Notes: generated by a model from the letters alone, not told the origin. A stretch of DNA of 64,000 nucleotides from Escherichia coli (GCF_046105845.1 NZ_CP151004.1), one strand, 5' to 3'. Numbered from the stretch's first letter, positions 9,215 to 34,156 are shown. A program made the numbers and translations.

Positions 9215-9217
9215 GAG

Positions 9218-9344: not shown

Positions 9345-9420
9345 TGGTGGGTCGTGCAGGATTCGAACCTGCGACCAATTGATTAAAAGTCAACTGCTCT
9401 ACCAACTGAGCTAACGACCC
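9345..9420 (-). tRNA. lysW: tRNA-Lys (anticodon UUU)
   Basis: Identical 76-nt tRNA-Lys copy. Confidence 0.97.
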
Positions 9421-9422
9421 GG

Positions 9423-9498
9423 TGGTGGGTGATGACGGGATCGAACCGCCGACCCCCTCCTTGTAAGGGAGGTGCTCTCCCAGCTGAGCTAATCACCC
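9423..9498 (-). tRNA. valT: tRNA-Val (anticodon UAC)
   Basis: Identical tRNA-Val(UAC) copy, 2 nt after lysW. Confidence 0.97.
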
Positions 9499-9533
9499 GA
9501 TACTACGCTGGATACTACAACTAACTAGGTTAG

Positions 9534-9607
9534 TGGTGGGTCGTGCAGGATGACTCGACTTCGTCTCGCCCTTCGGGCCGTTGCTGACGCAACGTTATCC
9601 TTCACGT
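9534..9607 (-). repeat. spacer repeat containing an 18-nt tRNA-Lys 3'-end fragment (second copy)
   Basis: Same truncated tRNA 3' end plus shared spacer sequence as 9041-9110. Confidence 0.6.
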
Positions 9608-9633
9608 TTTACTACCGCTTCCACCTTAGCGAT

Positions 9634-9709
9634 TGGTGGGTCGTGCAGGATTCGAACCTGCGACCAATTGATTAAAAGTCAACTGCTCTACCAACTGAGC
9701 TAACGACCC
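9634..9709 (-). tRNA. lysT: tRNA-Lys (anticodon UUU), first gene of the operon
   Basis: Identical 76-nt tRNA-Lys copy; promoter-proximal position in the minus-strand operon. Confidence 0.97.
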
Positions 9710-9873
9710 ACTTTTTCGTTGCTTTCGGTTTGTTTGATATCCCGTGGCAACGGCGGCATATATTACTGATTTCAGACTTGAGCGCAACAAAAATTTCGAT
9801 GTAGATCACTCAACTGCTTATGATTCGCACGACACGACCAGAAATAATGCGACTTCTGGTCGTGTGTTATGCA

Positions 9874-10665: not shown

Positions 10666-10674
10666 GCAATTCTC

Positions 10675-11220
<546 letters not shown>

Positions 11221-18838: not shown

Positions 18839-19175
18839 CATGACTCCTTGCTCATCGCATGAAGACTCCGAGAGTGAACCCCGTTAGAAAGGGTCACACG
18901 CATGCCCCAATACAAAATTATTTGCTCGCCTCTATCGTTGCCATTTCATCAAAAGAGGAAAAGACAATGATAAAAAAGTTACAAATATGTTAATGAATAA
19001 ACCAAATTGATCCCGTAATTATATTACGCCGCAAAATCCTTACAATAAACAGGTTTTTATTGAGCAAATTTGCATTTTTCGACAGTGATCAATTTATAGC
19101 GAAATTGTCACGATCTCACCAATTTGATCTACGACAATTTATCGTGTTTTGCAGATTTTTTTCAAGAATTAAAAA

Positions 19176-19189
19176 TTGATTTATATCAA
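19176..19189. promoter_or_regulatory. FNR-type palindrome in the cydA upstream regulatory region
   Basis: Perfect TTGAT-N4-ATCAA (ttgatttatatcaa) about 340 bp upstream of the cydA ATG; cydAB is FNR/ArcA-controlled in E. coli. Confidence 0.5.
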
Positions 19190-19643
19190 AACCAACCAAA
19201 TATGTTAATTATGTATAAACCATAGATCATTGGTGATTTTATTGTTAATTTATTGTGAAATATTTATGCAACACAATTATTACAATGAAAAGGTATAGAT
19301 AAAAAACCAGTGTTTTATTTAACAGAACCGCCTTATCCACTTTTTATAATACCAATTGATTAGATTAGCCAATTTGTTGCTATTTTACATAACATATTTT
19401 TATCAAAGTTAATTGATTGTTGCCTTTATGAGCACCGGCCGTAAGCCCGTTATGTTATTGTTTCATTAGTAATAATCACTTAAATGTATCGATGAAACAG
19501 GTATGACTTAGCGGGAGTGATTGTTTCTGAGTGAACAGAGACCACTTTCGCCTGATAAATGAAAAATGAGCGATTTTTGCAAGTTAGTTTTTCTATAGCC
19601 GAGTACGCTCAGCGCCTCGCTTGATTACAATGAGGTTGCTGCT

Positions 19644-20588
19644 ATGAGTCCTGATAATATCAGTTCTGCTGTCAATCGCTTCTCAGGTTGGCCATCTAAT
19701 AATCCTCTAAAAACAGATAACGAATCAATGACATCACCCATGACTGTGCAGGTAATAAAGATGATTGCCGCCATCCTTGACCCACATCGGATAGTCGTTG
19801 GAATCGATACACTTTATACAACGCAGCGCGAAACATTTACCTCAGAGAGTCAACAGCTCATTGAATCAGCATTGCAAACACTTCATGTGATGAATTTAAA
19901 TAACCTGGAAACAAATCTCGATGAGGAAGGTCACTATCTGGCTTTTGGATATAACGTTGACACTCCTGACAGAATAACCGTTTCTGCTTATAATGAAAAA
20001 AAGCCTGGCTGCTATGGCCAATGTCTTTTAATACAGGATGACGAAACAGACTTATTTAACCTGATAAAAGTTAAAATTTTTGAAGCCAGGCATAATTATG
20101 TCGCTCAATTGATGAGCGATCCGGAATTTATGTTCAAATTTAGTTATAGCGCTCAACAAAATAGATTAGAACCTCATCTTCTGGTTCCCACTTATTTCCC
20201 TCTAAAAACAAACGAACCGGTTACGCAAGAGGATGTACTGTTACTTTATCGTTTCTTTAAAATGGATGGTGATTTTAATATATTAACATCAGATGAATAC
20301 ATGAGTATCATGACACCTCTGATGAAGTGTGAGCGCAGCATCCACGACCACAACAGGTATGTGACGGGCAAAGATACCCTTCTTCTGGACTATCCTCCTT
20401 CTGGTAACCAGATATATTTCCATATTTTTCCTGACGAATCAGCAACACTAGTCCTTTATTTTTCAAACAATGACATTGAATGTTTCGTCTTTGAAAGAGA
20501 TATTCCGAGCCAGTATCGCTTTTTCAAAATGTTTACCAATCTGGCACTGGTTATTGATCAGTTAACCGATGCCAATCAAATACTTTAA
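19644..20588 (+). CDS. hypothetical protein, no recognisable family (orphan island gene A)
   Basis: 314-aa ORF with a GAGG RBS 7 nt upstream; markedly AT-rich (24 G+C in the first 60 nt); Ser/Asn/Pro-rich N-terminus. Confidence 0.7.
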   Translation: MSPDNISSAVNRFSGWPSNNPLKTDNESMTSPMTVQVIKMIAAILDPHRIVVGIDTLYTTQRETFTSESQQLIESALQTLHVMNLNNLETNLDEEGHYLAFGYNVDTPDRITVSAYNEKKPGCYGQCLLIQDDETDLFNLIKVKIFEARHNYVAQLMSDPEFMFKFSYSAQQNRLEPHLLVPTYFPLKTNEPVTQEDVLLLYRFFKMDGDFNILTSDEYMSIMTPLMKCERSIHDHNRYVTGKDTLLLDYPPSGNQIYFHIFPDESATLVLYFSNNDIECFVFERDIPSQYRFFKMFTNLALVIDQLTDANQIL

Positions 20589-20668
20589 TTTTTATATATT
20601 CTCTGTGGCAAATATTGCTAAACAATGCCCGGGGATTAATTTTTATTACTCACGGAAAGATTTAAATA

Positions 20669-21091
20669 ATGATCCCATCTCAAATCTCTTTCAACACCCT
20701 TCCTGTCAATGCAACATACGCTTCAGAGACAACAGTTGACACACAAAAATTCTCTGACATCCTCTACTCAGCGGGGTGTTCCCTAAAGGATCTGGCTTAT
20801 CTGAGCAGATGTCTGGCATCAATACATCCGACTATCGCCAAAAACATTTATGAAACAGAAAATCTCAGCGATCAAAAATTACTACATATTGATTGCCGTA
20901 GTACAAATGAAATCAAGATAAATATCTTTTTTGGTCAACAACGAGAAGGATTAATTGAAATTAGTTCTGACACAGTCATTTTTTCGATACTGTCTTCATT
21001 GATTGACTCCACCATTTCTAAATTTCAACACCAAAACCCCGTTAACGGTTCTGTAAATCCTGGCCTATTGTATGAGGATTATACTGATTAA
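20669..21091 (+). CDS. hypothetical small acidic protein (orphan island gene B)
   Basis: 140-aa ORF 80 bp downstream of gene A on the same strand; AT-rich; about 16 Asp/Glu versus 9 Lys/Arg by count. Confidence 0.65.
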   Translation: MIPSQISFNTLPVNATYASETTVDTQKFSDILYSAGCSLKDLAYLSRCLASIHPTIAKNIYETENLSDQKLLHIDCRSTNEIKINIFFGQQREGLIEISSDTVIFSILSSLIDSTISKFQHQNPVNGSVNPGLLYEDYTD

Positions 21092-21638
21092 ATCCCTCCT
21101 GTCGCGAAAAATGGCCTGCGTTATTGCCAGACGTAATAAAACTTTTGATTAACGTTTCTCGTACTGGTAGCACTTTCATGTACTTTTCTTTTTTACGAAA
21201 AATCAAAAGAGCTAACAAAGGTCATAATTCGCATGAATCATTAATTATTTGTTATTTTCAACATTATTTTTACATTAAGCAGAGATGAATTGCAGTGAAA
21301 TTCGACTTAACTTTTACGAAATGCATTTACTCATGGCTAAAGCCACGTCACAAAAATGCAAATTAGAAGTTGATCACAATTATCTCAATACATCAAATCA
21401 AGTTAATTTTAAAAATTTAACATTCATGACATTAGTTGACATAACACACTGAATTAAAATGAGAATTTGGAAACACACTTTAAACAATCATTTCCCGAAA
21501 GACATTTTGAAAATAGATCAATTGCAACATTACGGTCAGATAAAGACACTCCTGTGATATTAAACCTGTGCCGTTATGAACGGCCATAAATACGGCGTGT
21601 GTAACTTATTTTACTCTCTGTCTTACAAAGGATTACCC

Positions 21639-22088
21639 ATGAAGAAAGCAACACTTGTGATTGGCGTTATTGGCGCGGACTGCCATGCAGTAGGCAATAA
21701 AGTTCTGGACCGCGTTTTTAGCAACCATGGCTTCAGAGTCATTAATCTGGGCGTAATGGTCAGCCAGGACGAATATATTGATGCTGCCATTGAAACTGGC
21801 GCTGACGCGATTGTCGTCTCCTCTATCTATGGGCATGGCGATATCGACTGTCTGGGCATGCGCGAACGCTGCATCGAGCGTGGGCTGGGTAACATCCTGC
21901 TCTATGTGGGCGGTAACCTGGTGGTCGGAAAACATGACTTCGCTGACGTGGAAACCAAATTCAAAGAGATGGGATTTGATCGCGTCTTTTCCCCAAGTCA
22001 TGACTTAGAAGATGTTTGTCAGCTGATGGCCCACGATATCAACCAACGTCATGACGTTGATACTCGTATTCTTGAAGAGGCAATCTGA
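21639..22088 (+). CDS. glmS: glutamate mutase (methylaspartate mutase) small S subunit, cobalamin-binding; clostridial GlmS/MutS, not glucosamine-6-P synthase
   Basis: 149 aa from [24 protein letters not shown] with AAGGA RBS; DxHxxG B12-binding motif; strong similarity to Clostridium MutS/GlmS as I recall it; ORF-track start at 21576 rejected. Confidence 0.9.
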
Positions 22089-23476
22089 TGCAAATCGTCT
22101 CTGTCGATATTGGATCGACGTGGACCAAAGCAGCCCTCTTCGCCCGGGAGGGGGACGCGTTAACGTTGGTTAACCACGTACTGACCCCAACCACCACCCA
22201 TCATCTGGCGAAGGGGTTTTTCTCCAGCCTGAACCTGGTGTTAAACGTAGATAATGCCCTCCCCCTGTTTAACAGCGGTGAGGTTGCATTGAAGTATTCC
22301 TCCTCTGCCAAAGGTGGGCTGGCGGTTGCCGCAATGGGATTGGTGCCTTCTATCACCCTGGAAACCGCGAAAGTAACCGCTCACTCTGCGGGTGCTAAAA
22401 TTGCGCAATATTACGCCTACAAGCTGAACCGTCGTGATATCCAGGCACTGGAAGAAACGCAGCCCGATATTCTCTTGTTCACCGGCGGCACCGATGGCGG
22501 AGAAGAAAGCTACGGACTGAATAACGCCCGTGTGTTGGCAGAATCCAAACTCGACTGCGCCATTATTTATGCCGGAAACCGGGATATTCAGGACGAGGTG
22601 CAGGAGATCCTCGGGCATAAAGACCTGACCATCGTCGACAACGTTCTGCCCGATCTTGACCATCCGAACCCTTTAGCTGCACGCCAGGCTATCTGCGACA
22701 TATTCCTTAAACGCATCGTTAAAGGGAAAGGGCTGGATGTCGTTGTTGATAAAACAGGCGAAGAACCAATGCCGACACCGTGGACAGTCTTTGAACTGGT
22801 TAAGGCAATCAGTAATGTCGATCACAGCTGGAAAGAGTTCATGCTGATCGACATGGGTGGCGCAACCACCGATGTCTATTCCGCCTGTGCCAACACGCTC
22901 TCGCCCGACACCGTTTTACACGGCGTACCGGAACCCTTCGTGAAACGGACGGTGGAAGGCGATCTGGGAATGCGCGTCTCGGCAATGGTGGTTGGTGAAA
23001 GTGCGAAAGAGTTAGTCAATGTGAATTTTGCTCAGCAACCCGCACAGCTGGACGCTTTTTATCATTACCTCCGTCATCTAGTCGCTCATCCCGACTACTT
23101 ACCCGCGAATGCAGAAGAAAAATATTTCGATACCGTCCTGGCCGGACTGTGTGTGGGTTATGCCACCGAAAGACATGCGGGCACCAAAAAAGAGGTCTGC
23201 ACCTGCGTCGGCAATGTCGATTTACAGATGGGACGTGACCTGACAACCGTGCGTAAAGTCGTCGGATCCGGCGGATGGCTCTCGCGTGCCAGTCAGTTCG
23301 ATATGCATCACTGGTTGAAATACCGCGAGTTAAACGACGACGGTAAACGCATTCTCTTACCGACCGAATTTGAATATTACCGCGATTCCCGGGGGCTATT
23401 ACCACTGCTGGCAAACGTCGCCAGAGTCGATCCGCTGGCCGCCGCGCGCACCAGTATTCAATGCTTAACCCTATAA
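22088..23476 (+). CDS. glmL: glutamate mutase-associated protein GlmL/MutL (putative mutase reactivase/chaperone)
   Basis: 462 aa; start overlaps the glmS stop (TGATG); N-terminus IVSVDIGSTWTKAALF is an ASKHA-like ATPase fold motif; conserved position between the S and E subunit genes. Confidence 0.85.
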   Translation: MQIVSVDIGSTWTKAALFAREGDALTLVNHVLTPTTTHHLAKGFFSSLNLVLNVDNALPLFNSGEVALKYSSSAKGGLAVAAMGLVPSITLETAKVTAHSAGAKIAQYYAYKLNRRDIQALEETQPDILLFTGGTDGGEESYGLNNARVLAESKLDCAIIYAGNRDIQDEVQEILGHKDLTIVDNVLPDLDHPNPLAARQAICDIFLKRIVKGKGLDVVVDKTGEEPMPTPWTVFELVKAISNVDHSWKEFMLIDMGGATTDVYSACANTLSPDTVLHGVPEPFVKRTVEGDLGMRVSAMVVGESAKELVNVNFAQQPAQLDAFYHYLRHLVAHPDYLPANAEEKYFDTVLAGLCVGYATERHAGTKKEVCTCVGNVDLQMGRDLTTVRKVVGSGGWLSRASQFDMHHWLKYRELNDDGKRILLPTEFEYYRDSRGLLPLLANVARVDPLAAARTSIQCLTL

Positions 23477-23494
23477 CAATTAAGGCTGCAATCA

Positions 23495-24940
23495 ATGGAA
23501 CTTCGAAATAAGAAATTAACCCATGACGAATTCATGACCGAGCGGCAACAGGTACTGAAAACCTGGGAAACCGGCAAGGATGTTGAAAACTTTGAAGATA
23601 GCGTTAAATACCAACAAACCATTCCTGAGCATAAACGCTTCTCTCTTGCGCTGTTGAAAGCAGACAAGGAAGGTAAAACCCTTAGCCAACCGCGCGCAGG
23701 TGTGGCGCTGATGGACGAACACATCGAACTACTGAAAACACTACAAGAAGAGTGCGATCTGCTGCCGAGCACTATCGATGCATATACCCGTCTGAATCGG
23801 TACGAAGAAGCGGCTGTAGGGATTAAAAAATCCATCGAAGCCGGAACCTCTAAACTGAACGGTTTGCCGGTAGTTAACCATGGCGTCGCAGCTTGCCGTC
23901 GCCTCACCGAAGCCCTGCAAAAACCGCTACAGATCCGCCACGGCACGCCAGATGCGCGTCTGCTGGCTGAAATCTCGATGGCCAGCGGCTTTACCAGTTA
24001 TGAAGGCGGCGGCATTTCCTACAATATTCCGTATGCCAAGCGCGTAACGCTGGAAAAATCGATCCGCGACTGGCAGTACTGCGACCGTTTAATGGGGATG
24101 TATGAAGAACACGGGATCCGCATCAACCGCGAACCGTTTGGCCCACTAACGGGTACGCTGATCCCGCCGTTTATCTCGCACTCTATCGCGATAATCGAAG
24201 GATTGCTGGCACTGGAACAGGGTGTGAAATCTATCACCGTTGGTTATGGCCAAGTCGGCAGCCTGACGCAGGATGTTGCGGCGATCCAGTCTCTGCGTGA
24301 ACTTGCACACGAATATTTTCAGAGCTATGGCTATACCGACTATGAATTGAGTACCGTGTTTCACCAGTGGATGGGCGGCTTTCCGGAAGACGAATCGAAA
24401 GCGTTCGCTATTATCTCCTGGGGCGCAGCCGTCGCGGGGATGTCTGGTGCCACCAAAGTCATCACCAAAAGTCCGCACGAAGCCTGGGGAATCCCGACTG
24501 CCGCTGCCAACATTCAGGGGCTGAAAGCCTCCCGCCAGATGCTCAACATGGTCAATGAGCAGAAATTCCCGCCGTGCCCTGCGGTTGAACTGGAAATTGA
24601 ACTGATTAAGAGCGAGGTTCGCGCGGTACTGAATAAAGTGTTCGAACTGGGTAATGGTGATATTGCGCGCGGTACGGTGCTGGCATTTGAAGCGGGCGTA
24701 CTGGATGTGCCGTTTGCGCCAGCCGCCTGCAACGCGGGCAAAATTCTTCCGGTCCGTGACAACACCGGCGCGATACGCGTACTGGAAGCCGGAGCCGTTC
24801 CATTGCCAAAAGATATTCTCGACCTCCACCACGATTACGTTGCGGAACGCGCACGCTTTGAAGGACGCCAACCGACATTCCAGATGGTTGTAGATGACAT
24901 CAATGCTGTATCCCACAGTAAATTAATAGGAAGACCATAA
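23495..24940 (+). CDS. glmE: glutamate mutase (methylaspartate mutase) large E subunit
   Basis: 481 aa; long collinear similarity to Clostridium GlmE/MutE (MELRNKKLT...QPRAGVALMDEHIELL...HQWMGGFPEDESKAF...). Confidence 0.93.
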   Translation: MELRNKKLTHDEFMTERQQVLKTWETGKDVENFEDSVKYQQTIPEHKRFSLALLKADKEGKTLSQPRAGVALMDEHIELLKTLQEECDLLPSTIDAYTRLNRYEEAAVGIKKSIEAGTSKLNGLPVVNHGVAACRRLTEALQKPLQIRHGTPDARLLAEISMASGFTSYEGGGISYNIPYAKRVTLEKSIRDWQYCDRLMGMYEEHGIRINREPFGPLTGTLIPPFISHSIAIIEGLLALEQGVKSITVGYGQVGSLTQDVAAIQSLRELAHEYFQSYGYTDYELSTVFHQWMGGFPEDESKAFAIISWGAAVAGMSGATKVITKSPHEAWGIPTAAANIQGLKASRQMLNMVNEQKFPPCPAVELEIELIKSEVRAVLNKVFELGNGDIARGTVLAFEAGVLDVPFAPAACNAGKILPVRDNTGAIRVLEAGAVPLPKDILDLHHDYVAERARFEGRQPTFQMVVDDINAVSHSKLIGRP

Positions 24941-26181
24941 TGAAAATAAAACAGGCCCTGTTCACCGCTGGCTATTCCTCATTCTATTTCGATGACCAGC
25001 AGGCGATAAAAAACGGAGCGGGTCACGACGGCTTTTTTTATACCGGGGAGCCAGTAACACAGGGGTTTAACGCCGTACGTCAGGCCGGGGAGTGCGTATC
25101 GGTACAGTTGATTCTGGAAAACGGCGCGGTCGCCGTAGGTGACTGTGCTGCCGTACAGTATTCCGGGGCAGGTGGTCGCGATCCACTGTTCCTCGCGGAG
25201 CACTTTATTCCGTTCCTCAACGACCATATCAAGCCATTACTGGTAGGCCGCGATGTGGATGCTTTCCTGCCGAATGCCCGTTTCTTCGACAAATTGCGTA
25301 TTGACGGCAACTTGCTGCATACCGCCGTGCGCTACGGATTATCACAGGCGCTGCTTGATGCTACCGCGCTGGCAACCGGCCGTCTGAAAACTGAAGTGGT
25401 CTGTGATGAATGGCAGTTGCCACGCGTGGCGGAATCCATTCCATTATTTGGTCAGAGCGGCGACGATCGATATATCGCCGTCGATAAGATGATCCTTAAG
25501 GGCATCGACGTGCTGCCCCATGCGCTGATTAATAACGTCGAAGAGAAGCTGGGCTTTAAAGGTGAAAAACTGCGCGAATATGTCCGCTGGCTGTCGGATC
25601 GTATTCTGAGCAAGCGCACCAGCGCACGCTACCACCCTACCCTGCACATCGATGTATACGGCACTATCGGTCTGATCTTCGATATGGATCCGCTTCGCTG
25701 TGCGCAATACATCGCCAGCCTGGAAAAAGAAGCGCAAGGCCTGCCGCTCTACATTGAAGGGCCGGTCGATGCCGGTAACAAGCCCGATCAAATTCGCCTG
25801 CTGTCCGCGATTACCAAAGAGCTGACGCGCCTCGGTTCCGGCGTGAAAATTGTGGCCGATGAATGGTGTAACACCTACCAGGATATTGTTGATTTCACTG
25901 ATGCCGCCAGTTGCCACATGGTGCAAATCAAAACCCCGGATCTGGGCAGTATTCACAACATCGTCGATGCGGTTCTTTACTGCAACAGCCACAGCATGGA
26001 AGCGTACCAGGGCGGCACCTGCAATGAAACTGATGTCAGTGCCCGCACCTGTGTCCACGTCGCCCTTGCCGCTCGCCCTATGCGTATGCTGGTAAAGCCA
26101 GGGATGGGCTTTGACGAAGGCCTCGATATCGTCTTCAACGAAATGAATCGTACTATCGCGCTGTTGCAGGCTAAGGATTAA
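24940..26181 (+). CDS. mal: 3-methylaspartate ammonia-lyase (beta-methylaspartase)
   Basis: 413 aa; start overlaps the glmE stop; strong similarity to Clostridium MAL (AGHDGF.YTG, CAAVQYSGAGGRDPLFLA, ADEWCNT, HMVQIKTPDLG); enolase-superfamily fold. Confidence 0.93.
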   Translation: MKIKQALFTAGYSSFYFDDQQAIKNGAGHDGFFYTGEPVTQGFNAVRQAGECVSVQLILENGAVAVGDCAAVQYSGAGGRDPLFLAEHFIPFLNDHIKPLLVGRDVDAFLPNARFFDKLRIDGNLLHTAVRYGLSQALLDATALATGRLKTEVVCDEWQLPRVAESIPLFGQSGDDRYIAVDKMILKGIDVLPHALINNVEEKLGFKGEKLREYVRWLSDRILSKRTSARYHPTLHIDVYGTIGLIFDMDPLRCAQYIASLEKEAQGLPLYIEGPVDAGNKPDQIRLLSAITKELTRLGSGVKIVADEWCNTYQDIVDFTDAASCHMVQIKTPDLGSIHNIVDAVLYCNSHSMEAYQGGTCNETDVSARTCVHVALAARPMRMLVKPGMGFDEGLDIVFNEMNRTIALLQAKD

Positions 26182-26184
26182 CAA

Positions 26185-27555
26185 ATGGCTCGTTCTTTTA
26201 AAGTCTTATCGCCAACGGCAATCCTCGGGTATGGATTCCCGGAAGAGAGCTTCCGCAAAGCGATGGCAGAATCGCCCGATCTGATCGCCGTTGATGCAGG
26301 CTCTTCCGATCCTGGCCCCCACTACCTCGGAGCGGGCAAACCGTTTACCGATCGCGCAGGGGTCAAGCGCGATCTGCGCTATATGATCACCGCAGGCGTG
26401 CAAAATAATATACCGGTGGTGATCGGAACGGCCGGCGGTTCTGGTGCCGCTCCACACCTGGAGTGGTGCCGAGAAATAATTCATGAGATTGCCCGGGAAG
26501 AGCACCTCTCGTTCTCGATGGCGCTGATCCCGGCAGACGTTGACAAAGCCATCGTCCACCAGGCGCTGGATAACGGCAAAATCACGGCGCTGGATTTTGT
26601 CCCGCCGTTAACCCACGACGCGATTGACGAAAGTACGTATATCGTCGCGCAAATGGGCATCGAACCCTTCCAGCAGGCGCTGAAAGAAGGCGCGCAAGTG
26701 GTGCTGGGCGGGCGCGCTTACGACCCGGCCTGCTTTGCTGCGCTACCGATCATGCAAGGCTTTGATGAAGGTCTGGCGCTGCATTGTGGGAAAATCCTTG
26801 AATGCGCGGCAATCGCCGCAACGCCCGGCTCAGGCTCTGACTGTGCGATGGGCATCATTGATGACAACGGCTTTACGCTGAAGACATTTAATCCGAAGCG
26901 TAAATTTACCGAAACGTCAGCAGCTGCACACACACTGTATGAGAAATCCGATCCCTACTTCCTGCCTGGACCTGGCGGCGTGTTGAACCTGAAAGACTGC
27001 ACATTTAAAGCGGTCAATGACGGCGAAGTGTACGTCAGCGGTTCTAAGCATGAAGAAACGCCGTATGCCCTGAAACTGGAAGGTGCACGACGGGTGGGCT
27101 TCCGCTGTCTGACCATCGCAGGAACGCGCGACCCGATCATGATCGCCGGGATCGATAAAATCATCGATGAAGTCAAAACCAGCGTTTCGCGTAACCTGTC
27201 GCTCGACGATGACAGCATTCACATCAATTTCCACCTGTACGGCAAAAACGGGGTGATGGGCGACCATGAACCGATGCAAACTGCCGGGCATGAGCTGGGG
27301 ATTGTCCTAGATGTAGTTGCGCCGACCCAGGAAATTGCCAACAGCGTTTGCTCGCTGGTGCGCTCTACTATGCTGCACTACGGCTATGAAAACCGCATCG
27401 CTACCGCAGGCAACCTGGCGTTCCCGTTCTCCCCTTCTGATATCCAGGGCGGGCCGGTATACGAATTTTCCATATATCACCTGATTGAAGCCAACGACGC
27501 TCTGCGTTTTGATTTCCATATTGAACAGGTGACGCCAGAAGGAGTTCAGGCATGA
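26185..27555 (+). CDS. uncharacterised protein, possibly DUF1446/AtuA-like family (assignment from memory, unverified)
   Basis: 456-aa ORF 3 nt after the mal stop in the same operon; Gly-rich motif GTAGGSGAAP; no enzymatic family recognised with certainty. Confidence 0.75.
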   Translation: MARSFKVLSPTAILGYGFPEESFRKAMAESPDLIAVDAGSSDPGPHYLGAGKPFTDRAGVKRDLRYMITAGVQNNIPVVIGTAGGSGAAPHLEWCREIIHEIAREEHLSFSMALIPADVDKAIVHQALDNGKITALDFVPPLTHDAIDESTYIVAQMGIEPFQQALKEGAQVVLGGRAYDPACFAALPIMQGFDEGLALHCGKILECAAIAATPGSGSDCAMGIIDDNGFTLKTFNPKRKFTETSAAAHTLYEKSDPYFLPGPGGVLNLKDCTFKAVNDGEVYVSGSKHEETPYALKLEGARRVGFRCLTIAGTRDPIMIAGIDKIIDEVKTSVSRNLSLDDDSIHINFHLYGKNGVMGDHEPMQTAGHELGIVLDVVAPTQEIANSVCSLVRSTMLHYGYENRIATAGNLAFPFSPSDIQGGPVYEFSIYHLIEANDALRFDFHIEQVTPEGVQA

Positions 27556-27869
27556 AACAGTCAATTGTCTCACTGGCGCAAGTCATTCGTTCGAAAAATG
27601 CCGGACCTTACGAACTGGTTTTAGATATTTTATTTAAAACCAAAGAAAACTATGAGCGAGTTAAATCATCAGGGCAATTAACCCCAGAACTGATCGCGCG
27701 CTTATATCATGTTGAACCTGACTTTATTCATCGTATTGTCTGGTTTGATCCTTCTAACGCAGTAAAAATCGTCATGCCACGAGATATTATCTCCGGGAAT
27801 GTAGGTGACAATGATGTCTATGGTGCACAGCAACATGCACCTTTATTAAATATGAGTTTCGATTTGTAA
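27552..27869 (+). CDS. small uncharacterised protein, possibly DUF4387-like partner of the preceding gene
   Basis: 105-aa ORF whose ATG overlaps the upstream stop (ATGA), indicating translational coupling. Confidence 0.7.
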   Translation: MKQSIVSLAQVIRSKNAGPYELVLDILFKTKENYERVKSSGQLTPELIARLYHVEPDFIHRIVWFDPSNAVKIVMPRDIISGNVGDNDVYGAQQHAPLLNMSFDL

Positions 27870-28029
27870 AAATCCGAATACTTTTAGCCAACTGACATCC
27901 CGTCACTTATTGCAGTTCAACACTTCAGCTATTTGTAAGGTTGTAATAGCAGGTAGATGCCTGAATCTCTATTCAGGCATCTACTTCTCCTGATTCTGAT
28001 TTATCGCCGTGCACCTGATGGAGGAAAAA

Positions 28030-29310
28030 ATGAAGAAAATAAGTTTAACCACGATGATTCTTTTGGCGCTGGTACTTGGAATGATTATCGGCGTAGTGCT
28101 CAATAACACTGCTTCACCGGAAACCGCAAAACTCTATGCGCAAGAAATATCGATATTCACGACGATTTTCTTACGACTGATAAAAATGATTATCGCTCCG
28201 TTAGTGGTCTCTACCCTGGTGGTAGGTATAGCTAAAATGGGCGATGCCAAAGCCCTTGGTCGTATTTTTTCTAAAACACTCTTTTTATTTATTTGCGCCT
28301 CATTGCTGTCAATTGCCTTAGGCTTGATAACAGTAAATTTCTTCATGCCAGGCACAGGAATTAATTTTGTTGCACACGGAGTCGAAACCACCGGAGTGGT
28401 CGCGTCAGAACCCTTTACGCTAAAAGTATTTATTTCGCATGCTTTCCCCACCAGCATTGTCGATGCCATGGCGCACAATGAAATTTTGCAAATCGTGGTG
28501 TTCTCAATTTTCCTCGGCTGTAGCCTGACGGCGATTGGCGAGAAAGGCAGCGCCATCGTTCACGCCTTAGATTCGCTGGCACATGCCATGTTAAAGCTCA
28601 CTGGCTACGTCATGCTCTTCGCTCCCCTGACCGTATTCGCTGCTATTTCAGCATTGATTGCTGAACGAGGACTGGCAGTTATGGTGAGCGCCGGGATCTT
28701 TATGGGTGAATTTTATTTCACCATGTTATTACTTTGGGTGCTGCTTATCGGTCTGGCCATCGTTTATGTCGGCCCCTGCATCAGACGCCTGACCCGCGCC
28801 CTTTCGGAACCCGCCCTGCTGGCATTTACCACATCCAGTTCTGAAGCGGCTTTTCCGGGAACGCTTGAAAAACTGGAGCAATTTGGCGTTTCCCCCAAAA
28901 TTGCCAGCTTTGTCTTACCCATTGGCTACTCATTTAATCTCGTTGGATCAATGGCCTACTGCTCCTTCGCCACAGTTTTCATCGCCCAGGCCTGCAATAT
29001 CCATTTATCCATCGGTGAGCAAATCACCATGCTGTTGATCCTGATGTTGACCTCGAAAGGAATGGCTGGCGTACCACGCGCCTCAATGGTGGTTATCGCC
29101 GCCACGCTCAACCAGTTCAATATTCCGGAAGCGGGGCTGATCTTGCTGATGGGCGTTGATCCGTTCCTTGATATGGGGCGTTCCGCGACAAACGTCATGA
29201 GCAACGCAATGGGCGCTGCGATGGTGAGTCGGTGGGAAGGCGAACATTTCGGCGAGGGCTGTCGGGGTAAAGCATTAAAACCCAATGAATCGAACGTTGC
29301 TCTGCCCTGA
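28030..29310 (+). CDS. dicarboxylate/amino acid:cation symporter (GltP/DctA family), probable glutamate or C4/C5-dicarboxylate importer
   Basis: 426 aa from MKKISLTTMILLALVLGMIIG with GGAGG RBS 6 nt upstream; multi-TM profile typical of the DAACS family; ORF-track GTG start at 28009 rejected. Confidence 0.85.
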   Translation: MKKISLTTMILLALVLGMIIGVVLNNTASPETAKLYAQEISIFTTIFLRLIKMIIAPLVVSTLVVGIAKMGDAKALGRIFSKTLFLFICASLLSIALGLITVNFFMPGTGINFVAHGVETTGVVASEPFTLKVFISHAFPTSIVDAMAHNEILQIVVFSIFLGCSLTAIGEKGSAIVHALDSLAHAMLKLTGYVMLFAPLTVFAAISALIAERGLAVMVSAGIFMGEFYFTMLLLWVLLIGLAIVYVGPCIRRLTRALSEPALLAFTTSSSEAAFPGTLEKLEQFGVSPKIASFVLPIGYSFNLVGSMAYCSFATVFIAQACNIHLSIGEQITMLLILMLTSKGMAGVPRASMVVIAATLNQFNIPEAGLILLMGVDPFLDMGRSATNVMSNAMGAAMVSRWEGEHFGEGCRGKALKPNESNVALP

Positions 29311-29417
29311 GGGGGATCTTAAGCAATCAGAAGCCAATGACTACGCATTTTTATAAGCCGGATCATGAAGTTAGACGGCAATTAAGTAACACTAACGTTT
29401 AAGGTGAAAAGTGAAAT

Positions 29418-31070
29418 ATGTCAAAACCATTTATCTGGCAAGAACCGTTTCTACAAAATAAAGACGGTACAGAATATACATTAATTAGCGATCAGCATAT
29501 TACAGTAACGGAATTAGACGGCGAAGAAGTGATAAAAATCGCTCCTGAAGCATTAACGCTGCTTGCCCGGCAGGCATTTTATGAAGCCTCTTTTTTCTTA
29601 CGTTCCGCTCATTTGCAACAGGTCGCCAGCATTCTTAACGATCCGCAGGCCAGTAGTAATGATAAATACGTTGCGTTGCAGTTATTACGTAATGCTGAAG
29701 TCTCAGCAAAAGGGGTATTACCCAACTGTCAGGATACCGGCACCGCAACTATTGTTGCCAGTAAAGGGCAACAGATATGGACGGGAGGTAACGACGCTGA
29801 AGCCTTAAGCAAAGGCATTTACAGTACTTTCCAGGAAAATAATCTGCGCTTTTCACAAAATGCGCCGCTGGATATGTATACCGAAGTCAATACGCAAACC
29901 AATCTCCCGGCGCAGATTGATATCAGCGCTGTCGCTGGTAATGAGTACCATTTTCTCTGTGTTAATAAAGGGGGCGGCTCCGCCAATAAAGCCGCGCTTT
30001 ATCAGGAAACCAAATCCCTATTGCAACCAGAAAAACTGACCGCATTTTTAATCGAAAAAATGAAATCGCTGGGCACCGCTGCCTGCCCGCCTTACCACAT
30101 CGCCTTTGCCGTCGGAGGGCTTTCAGCCGATCAAACCTTAAAAGTTGCCAAGCTGGCCTCAACGAAATATTACGACAATTTGCCCACCAGCGGAAACGAG
30201 CAGGGACAAGCATTCCGTGATATTGAGCTGGAAAAAGTGTTGCTCGAGGCCAGTCAGCAATTTGGTATTGGTGCGCAATTTGGGGGTAAATATTTCGCTC
30301 ATGATATTCGCGTCATTCGTCTGCCGCGTCACGGTGGCTCTTGCCCGATAGCTATGGCGCTCTCCTGTTCTGCCGATCGCAATATCAAAGCAAAAATTAA
30401 CAAGCACGGTATCTGGCTGGAAAAACTCGAACACAATCCGGGGCAATATATTCCAGCCTCACTGCGGGAAGAAAACCACGCGCAACATGTACAACTGGAT
30501 CTAAACCGTCCGTTGCGTGACGTGATGCAGGATCTCGCCAGATTACCGGTAGGCACCCGCGTGTCGTTAAATGGTCCCATCGTAGTGGCGCGCGATATCG
30601 CCCACGCCAAAATAAAAGCGCGGCTGGATAGCGGCGAACCGATGCCGGATTACCTGAAGCATCATATTGTCTATTACGCTGGCCCGGCGAAAACACCTGA
30701 TAACATGGCCTGCGGTTCACTGGGTCCAACCACGGGCGGTCGAATGGACGGTTATGTCGATACCTTCCAGGCGGCTGGCGGCAGCCTGGTGATGTTATCG
30801 AAAGGTAACCGCAGCCAGCAGGTCACCGATGCCTGTCACAAACATGGCGGCTTCAATCTGGGAAGTATTGGCGGTGCAGCTGCGTTACTGGCGCAAGAAT
30901 ATGTCAAAAGTCTGCGTTGCCTGGAATACCCGGAGCTGGGTATGGAAGCGGTGTGGATGATGGAAGTGGAAAATCTGCCCGCATTCATTCTGGTAGATGA
31001 TAAAGGCAATAATTTCTTTAGTCAGTTTGAACAGCAACACCGCTGCGCCAGTTGCCCTGCGGGACATTAA
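29418..31070 (+). CDS. fumD: class I (Fe-S, FumA/FumB-type) fumarate hydratase paralog, probable mesaconase/fumarase
   Basis: 550 aa, collinear with E. coli FumA/FumB throughout (PFIWQEPF..., CQDTGTA, GGGSANK, CPPYHIA, HGGSCP) but clearly divergent; sits in the methylaspartate operon. Confidence 0.9.
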
Positions 31071-31079
31071 GGAAAATGA

Positions 31080-31682
31080 ATGGAAGCGCGAATTTCAACT
31101 GAACGGCATGTGCAGCGCCAGCAGAAATTGAAGGAACAGGTCGATACGCGCGTCGCGGCGGCGATAGAGAAAAAAGGGATCTTGATTGTTTTCACCGGCA
31201 ACGGCAAAGGGAAATCCACTGCCGCGTTTGGTACTGTAACGCGCGCGGTGGGTCATGGCAAAACGGTGGGGGTTGCGCAGTACATCAAGGGGCAATGGGA
31301 CAACGGCGAATACAACCTTCTCCAGCCGCTGGGGGTTGAGTTTCATATTATGGGAACCGGTTTTACCTGGGAGACACAGAACCGGCAAGCGGATATCGAC
31401 GCGGCGAAAGAGGTCTGGTCGGAAAGCAAACGGATGCTGGCTGACAAGCGTTACGACTTAGTGGTGCTTGATGAGCTGACCTATATGCTGGCTTACCATT
31501 ATCTGGATACCGAAGAAGTGATCGCTTCTCTGCAAAACCGCCCGGCACAACAAAGTGTCATTGTCACCGGACGCGGTTGCCACAGTCAGATATTAAAAAT
31601 GGCGGATACGGTCAGCGAAATCCGCCCCGTCAAACATGCTTTTGATAACGGCATTCAGGCCCAGCCGGGTATCGACTGGTAA
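31080..31682 (+). CDS. cob(I)yrinic acid a,c-diamide / cob(I)alamin adenosyltransferase (BtuR/CobA/CobO family)
   Basis: 200 aa; GNGKGKSTAAFG P-loop and collinear similarity to E. coli BtuR; AAGGAAA RBS. Confidence 0.9.
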   Translation: MEARISTERHVQRQQKLKEQVDTRVAAAIEKKGILIVFTGNGKGKSTAAFGTVTRAVGHGKTVGVAQYIKGQWDNGEYNLLQPLGVEFHIMGTGFTWETQNRQADIDAAKEVWSESKRMLADKRYDLVVLDELTYMLAYHYLDTEEVIASLQNRPAQQSVIVTGRGCHSQILKMADTVSEIRPVKHAFDNGIQAQPGIDW

Positions 31683-31685
31683 TAA

Positions 31686-31717
31686 CTGCGCCTGGCATCC
31701 CGCCAGGCGCAGGTTTT
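31686..31717. terminator. bidirectional hairpin terminator between the operon end and the convergent LysR gene
   Basis: ctgcgcctgg-catcccg-ccaggcgcag stem-loop followed by tttt; overlaps the LysR stop codon on the other strand. Confidence 0.55.
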
Positions 31718-32621
31718 ACATCTCCTGCGGTACAACCGATTTCGCCAGCAACCATTCACGAAATTGCTGCAAGTGCGGTGAGTCAGACTTCTCTTCCTGC
31801 CACGTCATAATAAAACGATTACCGGTACGAATAGGCACATCACAGGGGATCACCATATCGCCACTATCCAAATCATGTTGAATAGCGAAACGTGGTAACA
31901 GCGCCACGCCGAGATTCGAGCGCACGGCGGCAATCAGCATTGAAAGCAAATCGAAACGTGGTCCGTTGTTGACCAGCGGACTGCTAACGCCAGATAAGGC
32001 AAACCACTCTTCCCAGCCAGTAATACGGGTACTTTGATGCAGAAGTGGTAACTCTGTAAGCAGTTCTGCCACTGACAGTTTTTGATCGGACATTGTAAGC
32101 AAACTGCCGCTGCATACCGGCAAAATCTCCTCTTCAAAGAGATATTCTACTTCCGCCCAGGGCGCGCAAAAATTTTCGCGCATAATGACAGCATCGTACT
32201 CCCGATTAAGAAAATCGCCGTTATTAGCTAAAGAGTGAATATTAACAATAATATCGGAATGTAACTTTGTGAATTCATGTAAATTTGGGATTAACCAGTG
32301 GGTACTAAACGTAGGATTCACGGCAAGTTCAATAACCTTAACCGTAGGCTGCCAGGTCATAATGGTATTGGTATCGCGTTCCAGCTTATTTAATGTTTCT
32401 TTTACTATCCCCAGGTAATACTTCCCTGCATCATTAAGAAAAATACGTTTTTTAGAGTGTGAAAATAACGGAGTATGTAAAAATTCCTCCAGCGCACTCA
32501 CTTGTCTGAATACTGCACTTTGGGTCAACGCTAACTCCTCTGCCGCTCTGGTATAACTTTCATGACGTGCGACGACCTCAAAAGTCACCAGCAGCTCCGT
32601 TTTAGGTATTTTTCCTCGCAT
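31716..32621 (-). CDS. LysR-family transcriptional regulator
   Basis: 301 aa; N-terminal wHTH (ELLVTFEVVARHESYTRAAEELALTQSAVFRQVSALEEFL) plus substrate-binding domain; convergent with the operon. Confidence 0.9.
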   Translation of the reverse strand: MRGKIPKTELLVTFEVVARHESYTRAAEELALTQSAVFRQVSALEEFLHTPLFSHSKKRIFLNDAGKYYLGIVKETLNKLERDTNTIMTWQPTVKVIELAVNPTFSTHWLIPNLHEFTKLHSDIIVNIHSLANNGDFLNREYDAVIMRENFCAPWAEVEYLFEEEILPVCSGSLLTMSDQKLSVAELLTELPLLHQSTRITGWEEWFALSGVSSPLVNNGPRFDLLSMLIAAVRSNLGVALLPRFAIQHDLDSGDMVIPCDVPIRTGNRFIMTWQEEKSDSPHLQQFREWLLAKSVVPQEM

Positions 32622-33185
32622 AATGCCGTCCCTTAAAAATAGTTTAAACCATCAAAAATACATTACTTATTACGAAGTAATGGTAACCAAAGCAGCAATA
32701 AATAATTTATAAGAATCATGATTGACATTTATAACCCAGTAAGCCTGGCGTGACAAATATCTTAATCAGATAATAATAATCCGAAAAGCACAGCGCCTTT
32801 CGAATTATCCGGAATCACATTAAGTGAAAATTATTAAATTGATATCATTTATCATATCTGTGGATATTATGATAAACAATCAACAAAGATTTTATTTTTG
32901 ATTTATAGCATATCCCTCTAAGAATTTTTGCGATGCTGCAATATCCGGGGTAAAGACCCGATCCTGGCTGACAAATGGCACGACTTGACGATAAGCGGTG
33001 AACATCGCTTTTGTTGATTTACTTAACGCTACGGTCAAACGCTGGGAAGCCAGTGCATCAGGTAACGATTCGAAATTCGCCGTCGTTCTTATTCGTGGCT
33101 TGCGGTCGGTTGCGGCAATCCACAGTGGCTGTGGTCATGCAGTCAAGCCAGCGGTCAGATTTCGACCGTGGTTAACATTTAAGGC

Positions 33186-33286
33186 ATAAAAAAGGCCATC
33201 ATATGATGGCCAACCATGTCGAAACCGACAGCCCTTCGCCATTCCTGTAGAGGGAAGCGGCGAGGGCTATTTCTTATTACAGATAT
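33186..33286 (-). ncRNA. sdhX: probable SdhX (RybD) sRNA from the sucD 3' UTR with intrinsic terminator
   Basis: About 100 nt between the sucD stop and a ggccatcat/atgatggcc hairpin followed by a U-run on the minus strand; positional equivalence to the K-12 sucD 3'-UTR sRNA; sequence identity not verified. Confidence 0.45.
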
Positions 33287-34156
33287 TTATTTCAGAACAG
33301 TTTTCAGTGCTTCACCGATATCCGCCAGGCTGCGAACGGTTTTCACGCCTGCGGCTTCCAGAGCAGCGAATTTCTCATCCGCAGTCCCTTTCCCACCGGC
33401 AATGATCGCACCCGCGTGGCCCATACGTTTGCCTTTCGGCGCAGTCACACCAGCGATGTAACCCACAACAGGCTTGGTAACGTGCTCTTTGATGTACGCA
33501 GCCGCTTCTTCTTCAGCGCTACCGCCGATCTCACCGATCATCACGATCGCTTCGGTCTGCGGATCTTTTTCGAACATTTCGAGGATGTCGATAAAGTTAG
33601 AGCCAGGGATCGGGTCGCCGCCGATACCGACACAGGTCGACTGACCGAAACCGTAATCCGTGGTCTGTTTAACCGCTTCATAGGTCAGTGTACCGGAACG
33701 GGAAACGATACCCACTTTACCCGGTTTGTGAATGTGACCCGGCTGGATACCGATTTTGCATTCACCCGGAGTGATTACGCCCGGACAGTTCGGGCCGATC
33801 ATACGAACGCCTGCTTCATCCAGTTTCACTTTCACGGTCAGCATATCCAGCGTCGGGATGCCTTCAGTGATGGTGATAATCAGTTTGATGCCTGCATCGA
33901 TGGCTTCCAGAATGGAGTCTTTGCAGAACGGTGCTGGTACGTAGATAACAGAAGCGGTAGCGCCAGTAGCAGCAACAGCTTCACGAACGGTGTTGAACAC
34001 CGGCAGGCCGAGGTGGGTGGTGCCGCCTTTACCTGGGGTTACGCCGCCAACCATTTTAGTGCCGTATGCAATAGCCTGTTCTGAGTGGAAAGTCCCCTGG
34101 CTACCGGTAAAGCCCTGGCAGATAACCTTGGTGTTTTTATCAATTAAAATGGACAT
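33287..34156 (-). CDS. sucD: succinyl-CoA synthetase alpha subunit
   Basis: 289 aa; matches E. coli SucD. Confidence 0.97.

What the first reader, a model, noticed from the sequence alone, without database searches (positions are those of the whole stretch)
31080..31682. Operon-encoded cob(I)alamin adenosyltransferase paralog supplies coenzyme for the mutase
A BtuR/CobA-like adenosyltransferase with an intact P-loop is the last gene of the operon. The chromosome presumably already encodes btuR elsewhere, so this is a dedicated paralog, likely ensuring adenosylcobalamin supply for the radical mutase and its GlmL reactivase. It implies dependence on exogenous corrinoid uptake (btuB/btuCDF).
Basis: partly seen in the sequence, partly recalled or inferred. 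Interest (0 to 1): 0.5.

Follow-up and report, generated by a model that had tools for sequence, protein, structure and literature searches.

The report
Mutase-linked second B12 adenosyltransferase gene
An intact extra copy of the enzyme that converts vitamin B12 into its active coenzyme form closes a horizontally acquired E. coli gene cluster for B12-dependent glutamate breakdown; the gene is real and its proposed role is sensible, but it is already annotated and was drawn in a 2015 paper, so it is ordinary.

Summary
Window 31080-31682 (+) is a 200-aa ORF with a good ribosome-binding site. It starts 9 nt after fumD and ends 4 nt before the strongest terminator hairpin in the region. It scores well above the curated cut-offs for CobA/CobO/BtuR and aligns end to end with the solved Salmonella CobA (69% identity). 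The P-loop GNGKGKST, the Phe/Trp pair and every other checked active-site residue are intact.

It is a true second copy. Island-bearing E. coli also carry the housekeeping yciK-btuR gene, which is 68% identical.

Among 80 loci from other species, every copy at 80-86% identity lies in the same glmL-glmE-mal-...-fumD-cobA context. Every more distant copy except Morganella's lies in the sohB/yciK-btuR/rluB context. The mutase-linked copies form a clade with 100% bootstrap support and are under strong purifying selection (dN/dS 0.01-0.09).

It has not been tested biochemically.

It is not new. RefSeq calls the gene cobO, and Kronen & Berg 2015 (Fig 5) show CobA in this cluster. The only small extra is a clade-specific loss of Arg165.

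The parts
31080..31682 (+). Island-borne cobA/btuR-type ATP:co(I)rrinoid adenosyltransferase gene (200 aa; RefSeq name cobO, protein identical to WP_000388207.1)
   Evidence: ORF list. NCBIfam and Pfam scores are above cut-off. It is 69% identical and colinear with solved S. enterica CobA. The three nt differences from the O157:H7 allele are all synonymous.
31069..31073 (+). Shine-Dalgarno-like AAGGA, 6 nt upstream of the ATG and overlapping the fumD stop codon (31068-31070)
   Evidence: Read directly from the sequence.
31197..31220 (+). P-loop GNGKGKST (residues 40-47; S. enterica CobA 36-43)
   Evidence: Alignment to 1g5r. N37, K39, K41 and T43 are invariant in 82 sequences. T42 is Ser in the island clade and in several outgroups.
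31362..31370 (+). Codons for Phe95 and Trp97 (S. enterica CobA Phe91 and Trp93)
   Evidence: Invariant in all 82 aligned copies. Their critical role is stated in the title of Moore et al. 2012, seen in a reference list.
31584..31586 (+). Ser169, the position of S. enterica CobA Arg165. It is Ser/Thr/Ala in all 14 mutase-linked copies and Arg in all 67 housekeeping-type sequences (66 yciK-linked loci plus S. enterica CobA) and in Morganella
   Evidence: Column comparison. The position is not conserved in more distant CobA proteins.
31686..31712 (+). Terminator-like hairpin (11 pairs, 9 G-C, then GTTTT) between the convergent cobA and LysR genes
   Evidence: Top-ranked terminator-like site in 19000-33300.
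29418..31070 (+). fumD, a class I fumarase/mesaconase immediately upstream (9-nt gap)
   Evidence: NF011921 1281.6 bits. Characterised as a mesaconase by Kronen & Berg 2015.
21639..24940 (+). glmS (21639-22088), glmL (22088-23476) and glmE (23495-24940): the adenosylcobalamin-dependent glutamate (methylaspartate) mutase and its accessory/reactivating protein
   Evidence: NCBIfam equivalogs are all above cut-off. RefSeq annotation of the O157:H7 locus.
24940..29310 (+). mal (24940-26181), DUF1446/AtuA-like (26185-27555), DUF4387 (27552-27869) and a GltP/DctA-like symporter (28030-29310)
   Evidence: Gaps between genes are -4 to +160 nt.
31716..32621 (-). Convergent LysR-family regulator at the island border, conserved next to cobA in all 13 related island loci

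Best explanation
The gene encodes a functional CobA/BtuR-type ATP:co(I)rrinoid adenosyltransferase. It arrived as part of the enterobacterial methylaspartate-pathway island (glmS-glmL-glmE-mal-DUF1446-DUF4387-gltP-fumD-cobA) and is probably transcribed with it, at least with fumD.

Proposed mechanism, all inferred. When the island is expressed, imported cobalamin is bound by this enzyme, as is the cob(II)/hydroxocobalamin that GlmL removes from inactivated glutamate mutase. The bound corrinoid is reduced to cob(I)alamin and adenosylated with ATP. This raises the local supply of adenosylcobalamin for GlmS/GlmE above what the weakly expressed housekeeping yciK-btuR provides.

The logic matches PduO with PduGH in the pdu operon and EutT with EutA in the eut operon, but here the adenosyltransferase is CobA-type.

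Shown here: family membership, intact catalytic motifs, a second copy in the same genomes, strict linkage to the cluster, and purifying selection. Inferred: enzyme activity, co-transcription and the dedicated role.
For: - Family: TIGR00708 246.6 bits against a cut-off of 167.75, and PF02572 matched over its full length.
- Structure: colinear with solved CobA at 69% identity.
- Residues: N37, K39, K41, T43, R51, F91, W93, E128, Y131, Y135, R161, D195 and R9 are conserved in all 14 island-type copies.
- Operon position: 9-nt gap after fumD, a ribosome-binding site, and a strong hairpin right after the stop codon.
- Second copy: the housekeeping yciK-btuR is present in essentially every E. coli genome, including the listed island carriers. 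Nine other species hold both copies intact.
- Linkage: 13 of 13 copies at 80-86% identity lie in the glmL...fumD-cobA|lysR context, and 66 of 67 copies at 71% or less lie in the sohB|yciK-btuR|rluB context. In E. coli the gene occurs in 1121 genomes and the whole island in 1117.
- Phylogeny: the island clade has 100% bootstrap support.
- Selection: dN/dS is 0.01-0.09, like the housekeeping gene at about 0.06.
- Context from the literature: GlmL/MutL is described as a reactivating chaperone of glutamate mutase. Native btuR expression can be limiting in E. coli (Mok et al., PMC10802341).
Against: - No activity data exist for this protein.
- Kronen & Berg detected no methylaspartase activity in O157:H7 ATCC 700728 and saw no glutamate-dependent growth with any cobalamin form, so expression conditions are unknown.
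- Clostridial glutamate-mutase clusters, as listed in their Fig 4 legend, have no adenosyltransferase, so the mutase does not intrinsically need a linked one.
- In Morganella the related fumD-cobA pair lies beside the cob biosynthesis operon, with no glm genes within 10 kb. The linkage may therefore be historical rather than functional.
- Gaps of 160 and 107 nt inside the cluster could hold internal promoters.
Confidence: 0.72

Rival explanations
1. Redundant passenger. The protein is an active adenosyltransferase but has no dedicated role. It was the ordinary, cob-operon-adjacent cobA of the donor lineage, was captured together with fumD, and has simply travelled with the island.
For: Morganella morganii has gltP-fumD-cobA directly next to cobT-cobC-cobS-cobU-cbiP-cbiO-cbiQ. 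Its copy looks housekeeping-like, with the MSDERYQQRQQ N-terminus and Arg165 retained. It groups with the island clade at 95% bootstrap in the unrooted analysis. All host genomes checked already have btuR.
Against: A redundant gene should decay in some lineages. Instead all 14 island copies are intact 200-aa ORFs with dN/dS of 0.01-0.09, and the gene co-occurs with the island in about 99.6% of E. coli carriers. The Morganella sister relationship drops to 38% bootstrap when outgroups are added.
Confidence: 0.17
2. Specialised variant. The mutase-linked lineage has changed partner or substrate. It might use a reductant other than flavodoxin FldA, prefer a different corrinoid, or hand adenosylcobalamin directly to GlmS/GlmL in the way PduO-type MMAB loads methylmalonyl-CoA mutase.
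For: Eight positions differ consistently between the 14 island copies and the 67 housekeeping-type sequences: R28K, T42S (Ser in all island copies but also in 2 housekeeping copies), P70D, R74Y, V86I, G/A112S, L140T/I and R165 to S/T/A. The island copies also have a 4-residue longer N-terminus. From my own memory, Buan & Escalante-Semerena 2005 (J Biol Chem 280:40948) found Arg9 and Arg165 of CobA important for docking FldA but not for catalysis.
Against: I could not verify the Arg165-FldA statement here because the papers are not held. Position 165 varies freely (R, D, K, P, E) in more distant CobA proteins. Arg9 is retained. No extra reductase candidate is identifiable in the island. No CobA-type enzyme is known to deliver cofactor, to my knowledge.
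Confidence: 0.09
3. Not an enzyme: either a degenerate or non-catalytic P-loop protein, or a chance ORF.
For: None beyond the generic possibility. A weak secondary hit to the P-loop NTPase model NF005648 exists.
Against: That hit is 76.9 bits against a cut-off of 248, while the cobA equivalog is far above its own cut-off. All checked catalytic residues are conserved. Purifying selection is strong. There is a ribosome-binding site and a terminator.
Confidence: 0.02

Closest known systems
CobA of Salmonella enterica / BtuR of E. coli (housekeeping ATP:co(I)rrinoid adenosyltransferase; PDB 1G5R, 1G5T, 1G64, 4HUT)
   Same: Same family, length and architecture. 69% identity to S. enterica CobA and 68% to E. 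coli BtuR. The P-loop, Phe91/Trp93 and the other checked active-site residues are identical.
   Different: Different locus: fumD-cobA at the end of the glutamate-mutase island rather than yciK-btuR. It forms a separate clade with 100% bootstrap support. Its N-terminus is 4 residues longer, and eight positions differ consistently, including Arg165 to Ser.
The enterobacterial methylaspartate-pathway cluster described by Kronen & Berg 2015 (PLoS One 10:e0145098, Fig 5)
   Same: This is that cluster. The gene content matches (GlmS, GlmL/MutL, GlmE, Mal, DUF1446, GltP, FumD, CobA, LTTR), and the window protein is identical to the O157:H7 protein.
   Different: The paper only labels CobA in a figure legend. 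It does not analyse or test the gene. The E. coli version lacks the glutaminase gene found between gltP and fumD in Citrobacter, Klebsiella and others.
PduO (pdu operon) and EutT (eut operon): adenosyltransferases encoded inside operons of adenosylcobalamin-dependent enzymes, alongside reactivases PduGH and EutA
   Same: Same logic, from established knowledge: an operon for a B12-radical enzyme carries its own adenosyltransferase and a reactivating factor (here GlmL) even though the cell has a housekeeping CobA/BtuR.
   Different: The protein families are unrelated. The only NCBIfam and Pfam matches here are CobA-type. No microcompartment genes and no dedicated corrin reductase such as PduS are present in the island.
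Clostridial glutamate mutase operons (mutS/glmS-mutL-mutE-mal-mesAB-citDEF)
   Same: Same mutase, accessory protein and methylaspartase.
   Different: As listed in Kronen & Berg's Fig 4 legend, these clusters have no adenosyltransferase gene. The linked CobA is a feature of the enterobacterial version.

Membership tests
CobA/CobO/BtuR ATP:co(I)rrinoid adenosyltransferase (TIGR00708, NF004637, PF02572) | Profile score above the curated cut-off over the full domain | tested here: met
   TIGR00708 246.6 bits (cut-off 167.75). NF004637 295.6 bits (cut-off 185). PF02572 matched over 1-172/172, E 6e-64.
CobA/CobO/BtuR ATP:co(I)rrinoid adenosyltransferase (TIGR00708, NF004637, PF02572) | End-to-end colinearity with a solved, biochemically characterised member | tested here: met
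   S. enterica CobA 1g5r, E 2.5e-88, query residues 6-200 aligned to chain residues 2-196 without gaps, 69% identity.
CobA/CobO/BtuR ATP:co(I)rrinoid adenosyltransferase (TIGR00708, NF004637, PF02572) | Intact P-loop (GNGKGK[ST]T) and acidic Mg/ATP residue (Glu128) | tested here: met
   GNGKGKST at residues 40-47. Glu128 equivalent is invariant.
CobA/CobO/BtuR ATP:co(I)rrinoid adenosyltransferase (TIGR00708, NF004637, PF02572) | Phe91 and Trp93, needed to form four-coordinate cob(II)alamin | tested here: met
   Phe95 and Trp97 are present and invariant in 82 sequences. Their role is taken from the title of Moore et al. 2012.
CobA/CobO/BtuR ATP:co(I)rrinoid adenosyltransferase (TIGR00708, NF004637, PF02572) | N-terminal helix (Pfam Co_AT_N, PF12557) | tested here: inconclusive
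   PF12557 E 0.0011, 19.3 bits on this protein. The domain is precomputed on some close island-type homologues but not others. Arg9 equivalent is conserved.
CobA/CobO/BtuR ATP:co(I)rrinoid adenosyltransferase (TIGR00708, NF004637, PF02572) | Catalyses adenosylation of cob(I)alamin/cob(I)yrinic acid a,c-diamide with ATP | not testable with these tools
   Needs an enzyme assay or complementation of a btuR/cobA mutant.
PduO-type or EutT-type adenosyltransferases | Match to the PduO or EutT protein families | tested here: not met
   The only NCBIfam and Pfam matches are CobA-type families.
Enterobacterial methylaspartate-pathway island (Kronen & Berg 2015) | Gene order glmS-glmL-glmE-mal-DUF1446-(DUF4387)-gltP-fumD-cobA with a convergent LysR regulator | tested here: met
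   Window ORFs and NCBIfam. RefSeq annotation of the O157:H7 locus. The same order holds in 13 loci from other genera. Figure legend of the paper.
Single transcription unit with the mutase genes | Same strand, short gaps, terminator only after the last gene; a transcript spanning the junctions | tested here: inconclusive
   Same strand. Gaps are -4 to +18 nt within glmS..DUF4387, then 160 and 107 nt around gltP, then 9 nt between fumD and cobA. A strong hairpin occurs only after cobA. Co-transcription itself is not testable here.

The most novel reading that the evidence does not exclude
The mutase-linked CobA lineage is not just a spare copy but a functionally diverged adenosyltransferase. 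Having lost Arg165 and changed several other surface positions (Arg28, Arg74) that are fixed in housekeeping BtuR/CobA, it would no longer depend on flavodoxin FldA for cobalt reduction. It might also work in a complex with GlmL/GlmS to reload the mutase directly. That would make it the first CobA-type enzyme with a cofactor-escort role like that of PduO-type MMAB.
Probability: 0.08. Interest if true: 0.5.

Novelty: already known. Interest (0 to 1): 0.13.

Why it matters
The finding has little importance as a discovery. The gene is annotated as cobO in more than a thousand E. coli genomes and is drawn as CobA in the published map of this cluster.

Its practical value is as a reagent and a hint. 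About a fifth of E. coli strains, including O157:H7, carry a complete B12-dependent glutamate-to-citramalate module with its own cofactor-activation gene, yet nobody has seen the module work in the laboratory. Anyone trying to switch the pathway on, or to move glutamate mutase into another host, should include this gene.

The clean split between mutase-linked and yciK-linked copies also offers a small natural experiment on what a 'dedicated' adenosyltransferase needs to change.

Tried and rejected
- **Cobalamin riboswitch or other known RNA element controlling the island:** none found at gathering thresholds in the whole window, and none at E<=1 in 18800-33300.
- **Recent in-genome duplication of btuR:** rejected. 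The island copy is 68% identical to E. coli BtuR, while E. coli and Salmonella housekeeping proteins are 89% identical. The island copies form their own clade.
- **A non-enterobacterial donor closer than the enterobacterial housekeeping genes:** none seen. The best full-length representative from other 50%-identity clusters is 58% identical, and the top 120 close homologues are all island-type enterobacterial proteins.
- **Rooting the tree to fix the origin:** only partly successful. The yciK-linked clade gets 67% bootstrap. The Morganella sister relationship is 95% unrooted but 38% with outgroups. These are neighbour-joining trees only; no maximum-likelihood program was available.
- **Verifying from the literature that Arg165 of CobA docks flavodoxin:** failed. 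The relevant papers are not held, so the statement rests on my memory.
- **Literature on locus tags or expression of this gene in EHEC:** nothing beyond Kronen & Berg 2015.
- **First bootstrap run with Biopython:** timed out and was redone with a numpy implementation.
- **Pfam scan of the upstream 314-aa ORF:** no significant family.

Full report
**The observation**

Window 31080-31682 on the + strand is an ATG-initiated ORF of 200 codons. AAGGA at 31069-31073 lies 6 nt upstream of the start. The upstream gene's TAA stop is at 31068-31070, so the two genes are 9 nt apart.

Four nucleotides after the stop codon lies CTGCGCCTGGCATCCCGCCAGGCGCAG followed by GTTTT (31686-31712). It is the top-ranked terminator-like hairpin found between 19000 and 33300, with 11 pairs, 9 of them G-C. 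The next gene (31716-32621) is a convergent LysR-family regulator. 'Last gene on its strand, followed by a terminator' is therefore what the sequence shows.

**What the protein is**

- Family scores. It scores 246.6 bits on the NCBIfam equivalog TIGR00708 cobA (cut-off 167.75) and 295.6 bits on NF004637 (cut-off 185). Pfam PF02572 (CobA_CobO_BtuR) is matched from position 1 to 172 of 172, E 6e-64.
- Structure. The best solved structure is Salmonella enterica CobA (1g5r, 1g5t, 1g64, 4hut), E 2.5e-88. Residues 6-200 align to residues 2-196 without a gap.
- Identity. It is 68.9% identical to S. enterica CobA and 67.9% to E. coli BtuR.
- P-loop. GNGKGKST at residues 40-47 is intact.
- Residues. 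In an alignment of 82 enterobacterial copies, the equivalents of CobA N37, K39, K41, T43, R51, F91, W93, E128, Y131, R161, D195 and R9 are invariant. Y135 is Tyr in all island copies.
- F91 and W93. Their importance is documented in the title of Moore et al. 2012, seen in a reference list. My selection of the other residues comes from memory of the CobA structural and mutational literature.
- Rival families. The only non-enzymatic relative that appears, the 'P-loop NTPase family protein' model NF005648, scores 76.9 bits against a cut-off of 248. No PduO- or EutT-type family is matched.

**Where the window comes from, and the surroundings**

The gene is 99.5% identical to the copy in E. coli O157:H7. 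The three differences are all synonymous, so the protein equals RefSeq WP_000388207.1, annotated 'cobO: cob(I)yrinic acid a,c-diamide adenosyltransferase'.

Upstream on the same strand lie:

- glmS, glmL and glmE: methylaspartate/glutamate mutase S, accessory protein and E subunit
- methylaspartate ammonia-lyase (mal)
- a DUF1446/AtuA-like protein and a DUF4387 protein
- a GltP/DctA-like symporter
- the class I fumarase FumD

Gaps are -4 to +18 nt from glmS to DUF4387, then 160 and 107 nt around the transporter gene, then 9 nt between fumD and cobA. The whole 14.3-kb block lies between sucD and cydA. It is present at 80% coverage or more in 1117 of 5426 complete E. coli genomes. K-12-like strains carry mngR-mngA-mngB at that site instead. 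The cobA gene itself is found in 1121 genomes, so it is essentially never found without the island.

**Is it a second copy?**

Yes. A lower-stringency DNA search finds 6546 places in 5425 records. The six island-bearing records listed each show two places. Island-free genomes have one place at about 68% identity. That place is the housekeeping gene in the sohB | yciK-btuR | rluB locus.

In a scan of one genome per species, nine species hold both an island-type and a yciK-linked copy. They are six Citrobacter, a Raoultella MAG, Lelliottia nimipressuralis and Klebsiella michiganensis. Both copies are intact in each, and they are 66-70% identical to each other.

**Linkage and descent**

| Copies found in the species scan | Identity to the window protein | Context |
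|---|---|---|
| 13 loci | 80-86% | glmL-glmE-mal-DUF1446-DUF4387-gltP-(glutaminase)-fumD-cobA \| lysR |
| 66 loci | 71% or less | sohB \| yciK-btuR \| rluB |
| 1 locus (Morganella morganii) | 69% | gltP-fumD-cobA, next to cobT-cobC-cobS-cobU-cbiP-cbiO-cbiQ |

The Morganella locus has no glm or mal genes within 10 kb.

In neighbour-joining trees the 14 mutase-linked copies form a clade with 100% bootstrap support. The Morganella copy joins them in 95% of unrooted replicates but only 38% once outgroups are added. The yciK-linked copies form a clade in 67% of replicates, and within it the branching broadly follows genus relationships.

E. coli and Salmonella housekeeping proteins are 89% identical, while the island copy is 68-69% identical to both. 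The island copy therefore separated long before those genera did. It is better described as a copy that arrived with the island than as a duplication within E. coli.

No non-enterobacterial protein is closer. The best full-length representative of another 50%-identity cluster is 58% identical. The 120 closest homologues are all 200-aa island-type proteins. Sources name them from Escherichia, Citrobacter, Salmonella and Enterobacter.

**Is it maintained?**

Yes. Pairwise dN/dS within the island clade is 0.01-0.09, the same range as housekeeping pairs (0.056-0.065). Synonymous sites between the E. coli copy and the other genera are saturated. All 14 copies are uninterrupted 200-codon ORFs.

**How it most likely works**

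By homology the protein binds ATP through its P-loop and binds a corrinoid. It uses Phe/Trp to force cob(II)alamin into a four-coordinate state that can be reduced, then transfers the adenosyl group from ATP to cob(I)alamin. This is the established mechanism of S. enterica CobA.

In this context the product, adenosylcobalamin, is the cofactor of GlmS/GlmE. GlmL/MutL is described as a chaperone that reactivates glutamate mutase (Kronen & Berg, Fig 4 legend). The simplest model is a cofactor-maintenance pair:

1. GlmL ejects damaged cobalamin from the inactivated mutase.
2. The island CobA re-adenosylates it, and also adenosylates newly imported cobalamin.

This would happen at a level matched to island expression and would not depend on the housekeeping yciK-btuR. 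That native btuR expression can be limiting in E. coli is shown by laboratory evolution, in which promoter mutations raised yciK-btuR mRNA 5- to 15-fold (PMC10802341). The same arrangement is established for PduO/PduGH and EutT/EutA, though those adenosyltransferases are unrelated in sequence. All of this model is inference; nothing here tests activity, co-transcription or the dedicated role.

**Evidence against the model, and rivals**

- Kronen & Berg could not detect methylaspartase activity in O157:H7 ATCC 700728. They saw no growth on glutamate with hydroxo-, cyano- or adenosylcobalamin. The island may be silent under laboratory conditions.
- The region upstream of glmS is very AT-rich and contains no cobalamin riboswitch or any other Rfam family.
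- Clostridial glutamate-mutase clusters, as listed in their Fig 4 legend, lack an adenosyltransferase. The Morganella arrangement suggests the fumD-cobA linkage could be a historical accident next to the cob operon. This keeps a 'redundant passenger' reading alive, though the strong purifying selection argues against it.
- A more interesting rival is functional divergence. Eight positions differ consistently between the island clade and all 67 housekeeping-type sequences: R28K, T42S (Ser in every island copy but also in two housekeeping copies), P70D, R74Y, V86I, G/A112S, L140T/I and R165 to S/T/A.
- From memory, Arg165 with Arg9 was reported to mediate docking of flavodoxin FldA (Buan & Escalante-Semerena 2005). 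I could not check this because the papers are not held. Position 165 varies freely in more distant CobA proteins. I give this reading under 10%.

**Comparison with what is known, and novelty**

The gene is a member of the CobA/CobO/BtuR family by every testable criterion. The cluster is the one described by Kronen & Berg 2015 (PLoS One 10:e0145098). They found it in 26.5% of E. coli and 90.6% of O157:H7 strains. Their Fig 5 legend lists 'CobA, cob(I)alamin adenosyltransferase' and 'LTTR' among its genes.

The existence of an operon-encoded CobA next to the mutase is therefore already known and annotated. This analysis adds:

- the demonstration that the linked copies are a separate, selected lineage that coexists with btuR
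- the Morganella arrangement
- the clade-specific substitutions

The need for imported corrinoid is a property of E. coli. The same mutase-linked copy occurs in Salmonella, Citrobacter and Klebsiella, which by established knowledge make B12 anaerobically.

**Verdict**

- Observation: confirmed.
- Interpretation: supported by homology and conserved context, but untested biochemically.
- Novelty: already known.
- Interest: low.

Noticed in passing
window 19000-33300: The whole 14.3-kb glutamate-mutase island occupies the sucD-cydA interval in 1117 of 5426 complete E. coli genomes. K-12-like strains have mngR-mngA-mngB there instead, and at least one listed genome (H53) has both.
   Followed up: partly
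window 26185-27869: A DUF1446/AtuA-like gene and an overlapping DUF4387 gene match no NCBIfam family, yet are conserved at 84-92% identity in every island locus from other genera. Their role in the pathway is unknown.
   Followed up: partly
L003:7135-8136, and the same position in L004-L015: Citrobacter, Klebsiella, Lelliottia, Buttiauxella and Raoultella versions of the island carry a 333-aa gene between gltP and fumD. It appears to be the glutaminase (GlsA) of Kronen & Berg's Fig 5 and has an apparent signal peptide; this was read by eye and not scanned. The E. coli window has only 107 nt there.
   Followed up: partly
L062:6573-18664 (Morganella morganii): gltP-fumD-cobA lies beside the 3' end of the cobalamin biosynthesis operon (cobT, cobC, cobS, cobU, cbiP, cbiO, cbiQ). 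No glm or mal genes lie within 10 kb. This is a possible clue to how fumD and cobA became linked.
   Followed up: partly
window 31584-31586: Ser169 replaces the Arg (S. enterica CobA Arg165) that is invariant in all 67 housekeeping-type sequences (66 yciK-linked loci plus S. enterica CobA). All 14 mutase-linked copies have Ser, Thr or Ala here.
   Followed up: partly
window 19644-21638: Two ORFs lie at the cydA-side edge of the island (19644-20588 and 20670-21092). The first has no significant Pfam family; the second was not scanned. A very AT-rich 546-nt region follows upstream of glmS. No Rfam family is found anywhere in 18800-33300, even at E<=1.
   Followed up: partly
window 8650-9710 (-) and 10636-10774 (-): An array of seven tRNA genes is interleaved with three RtT-family repeats. 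A CpoB/ybgF RNA thermometer (142 bits) lies nearby. Both appear to be ordinary features of this E. coli chromosomal region.
   Followed up: no
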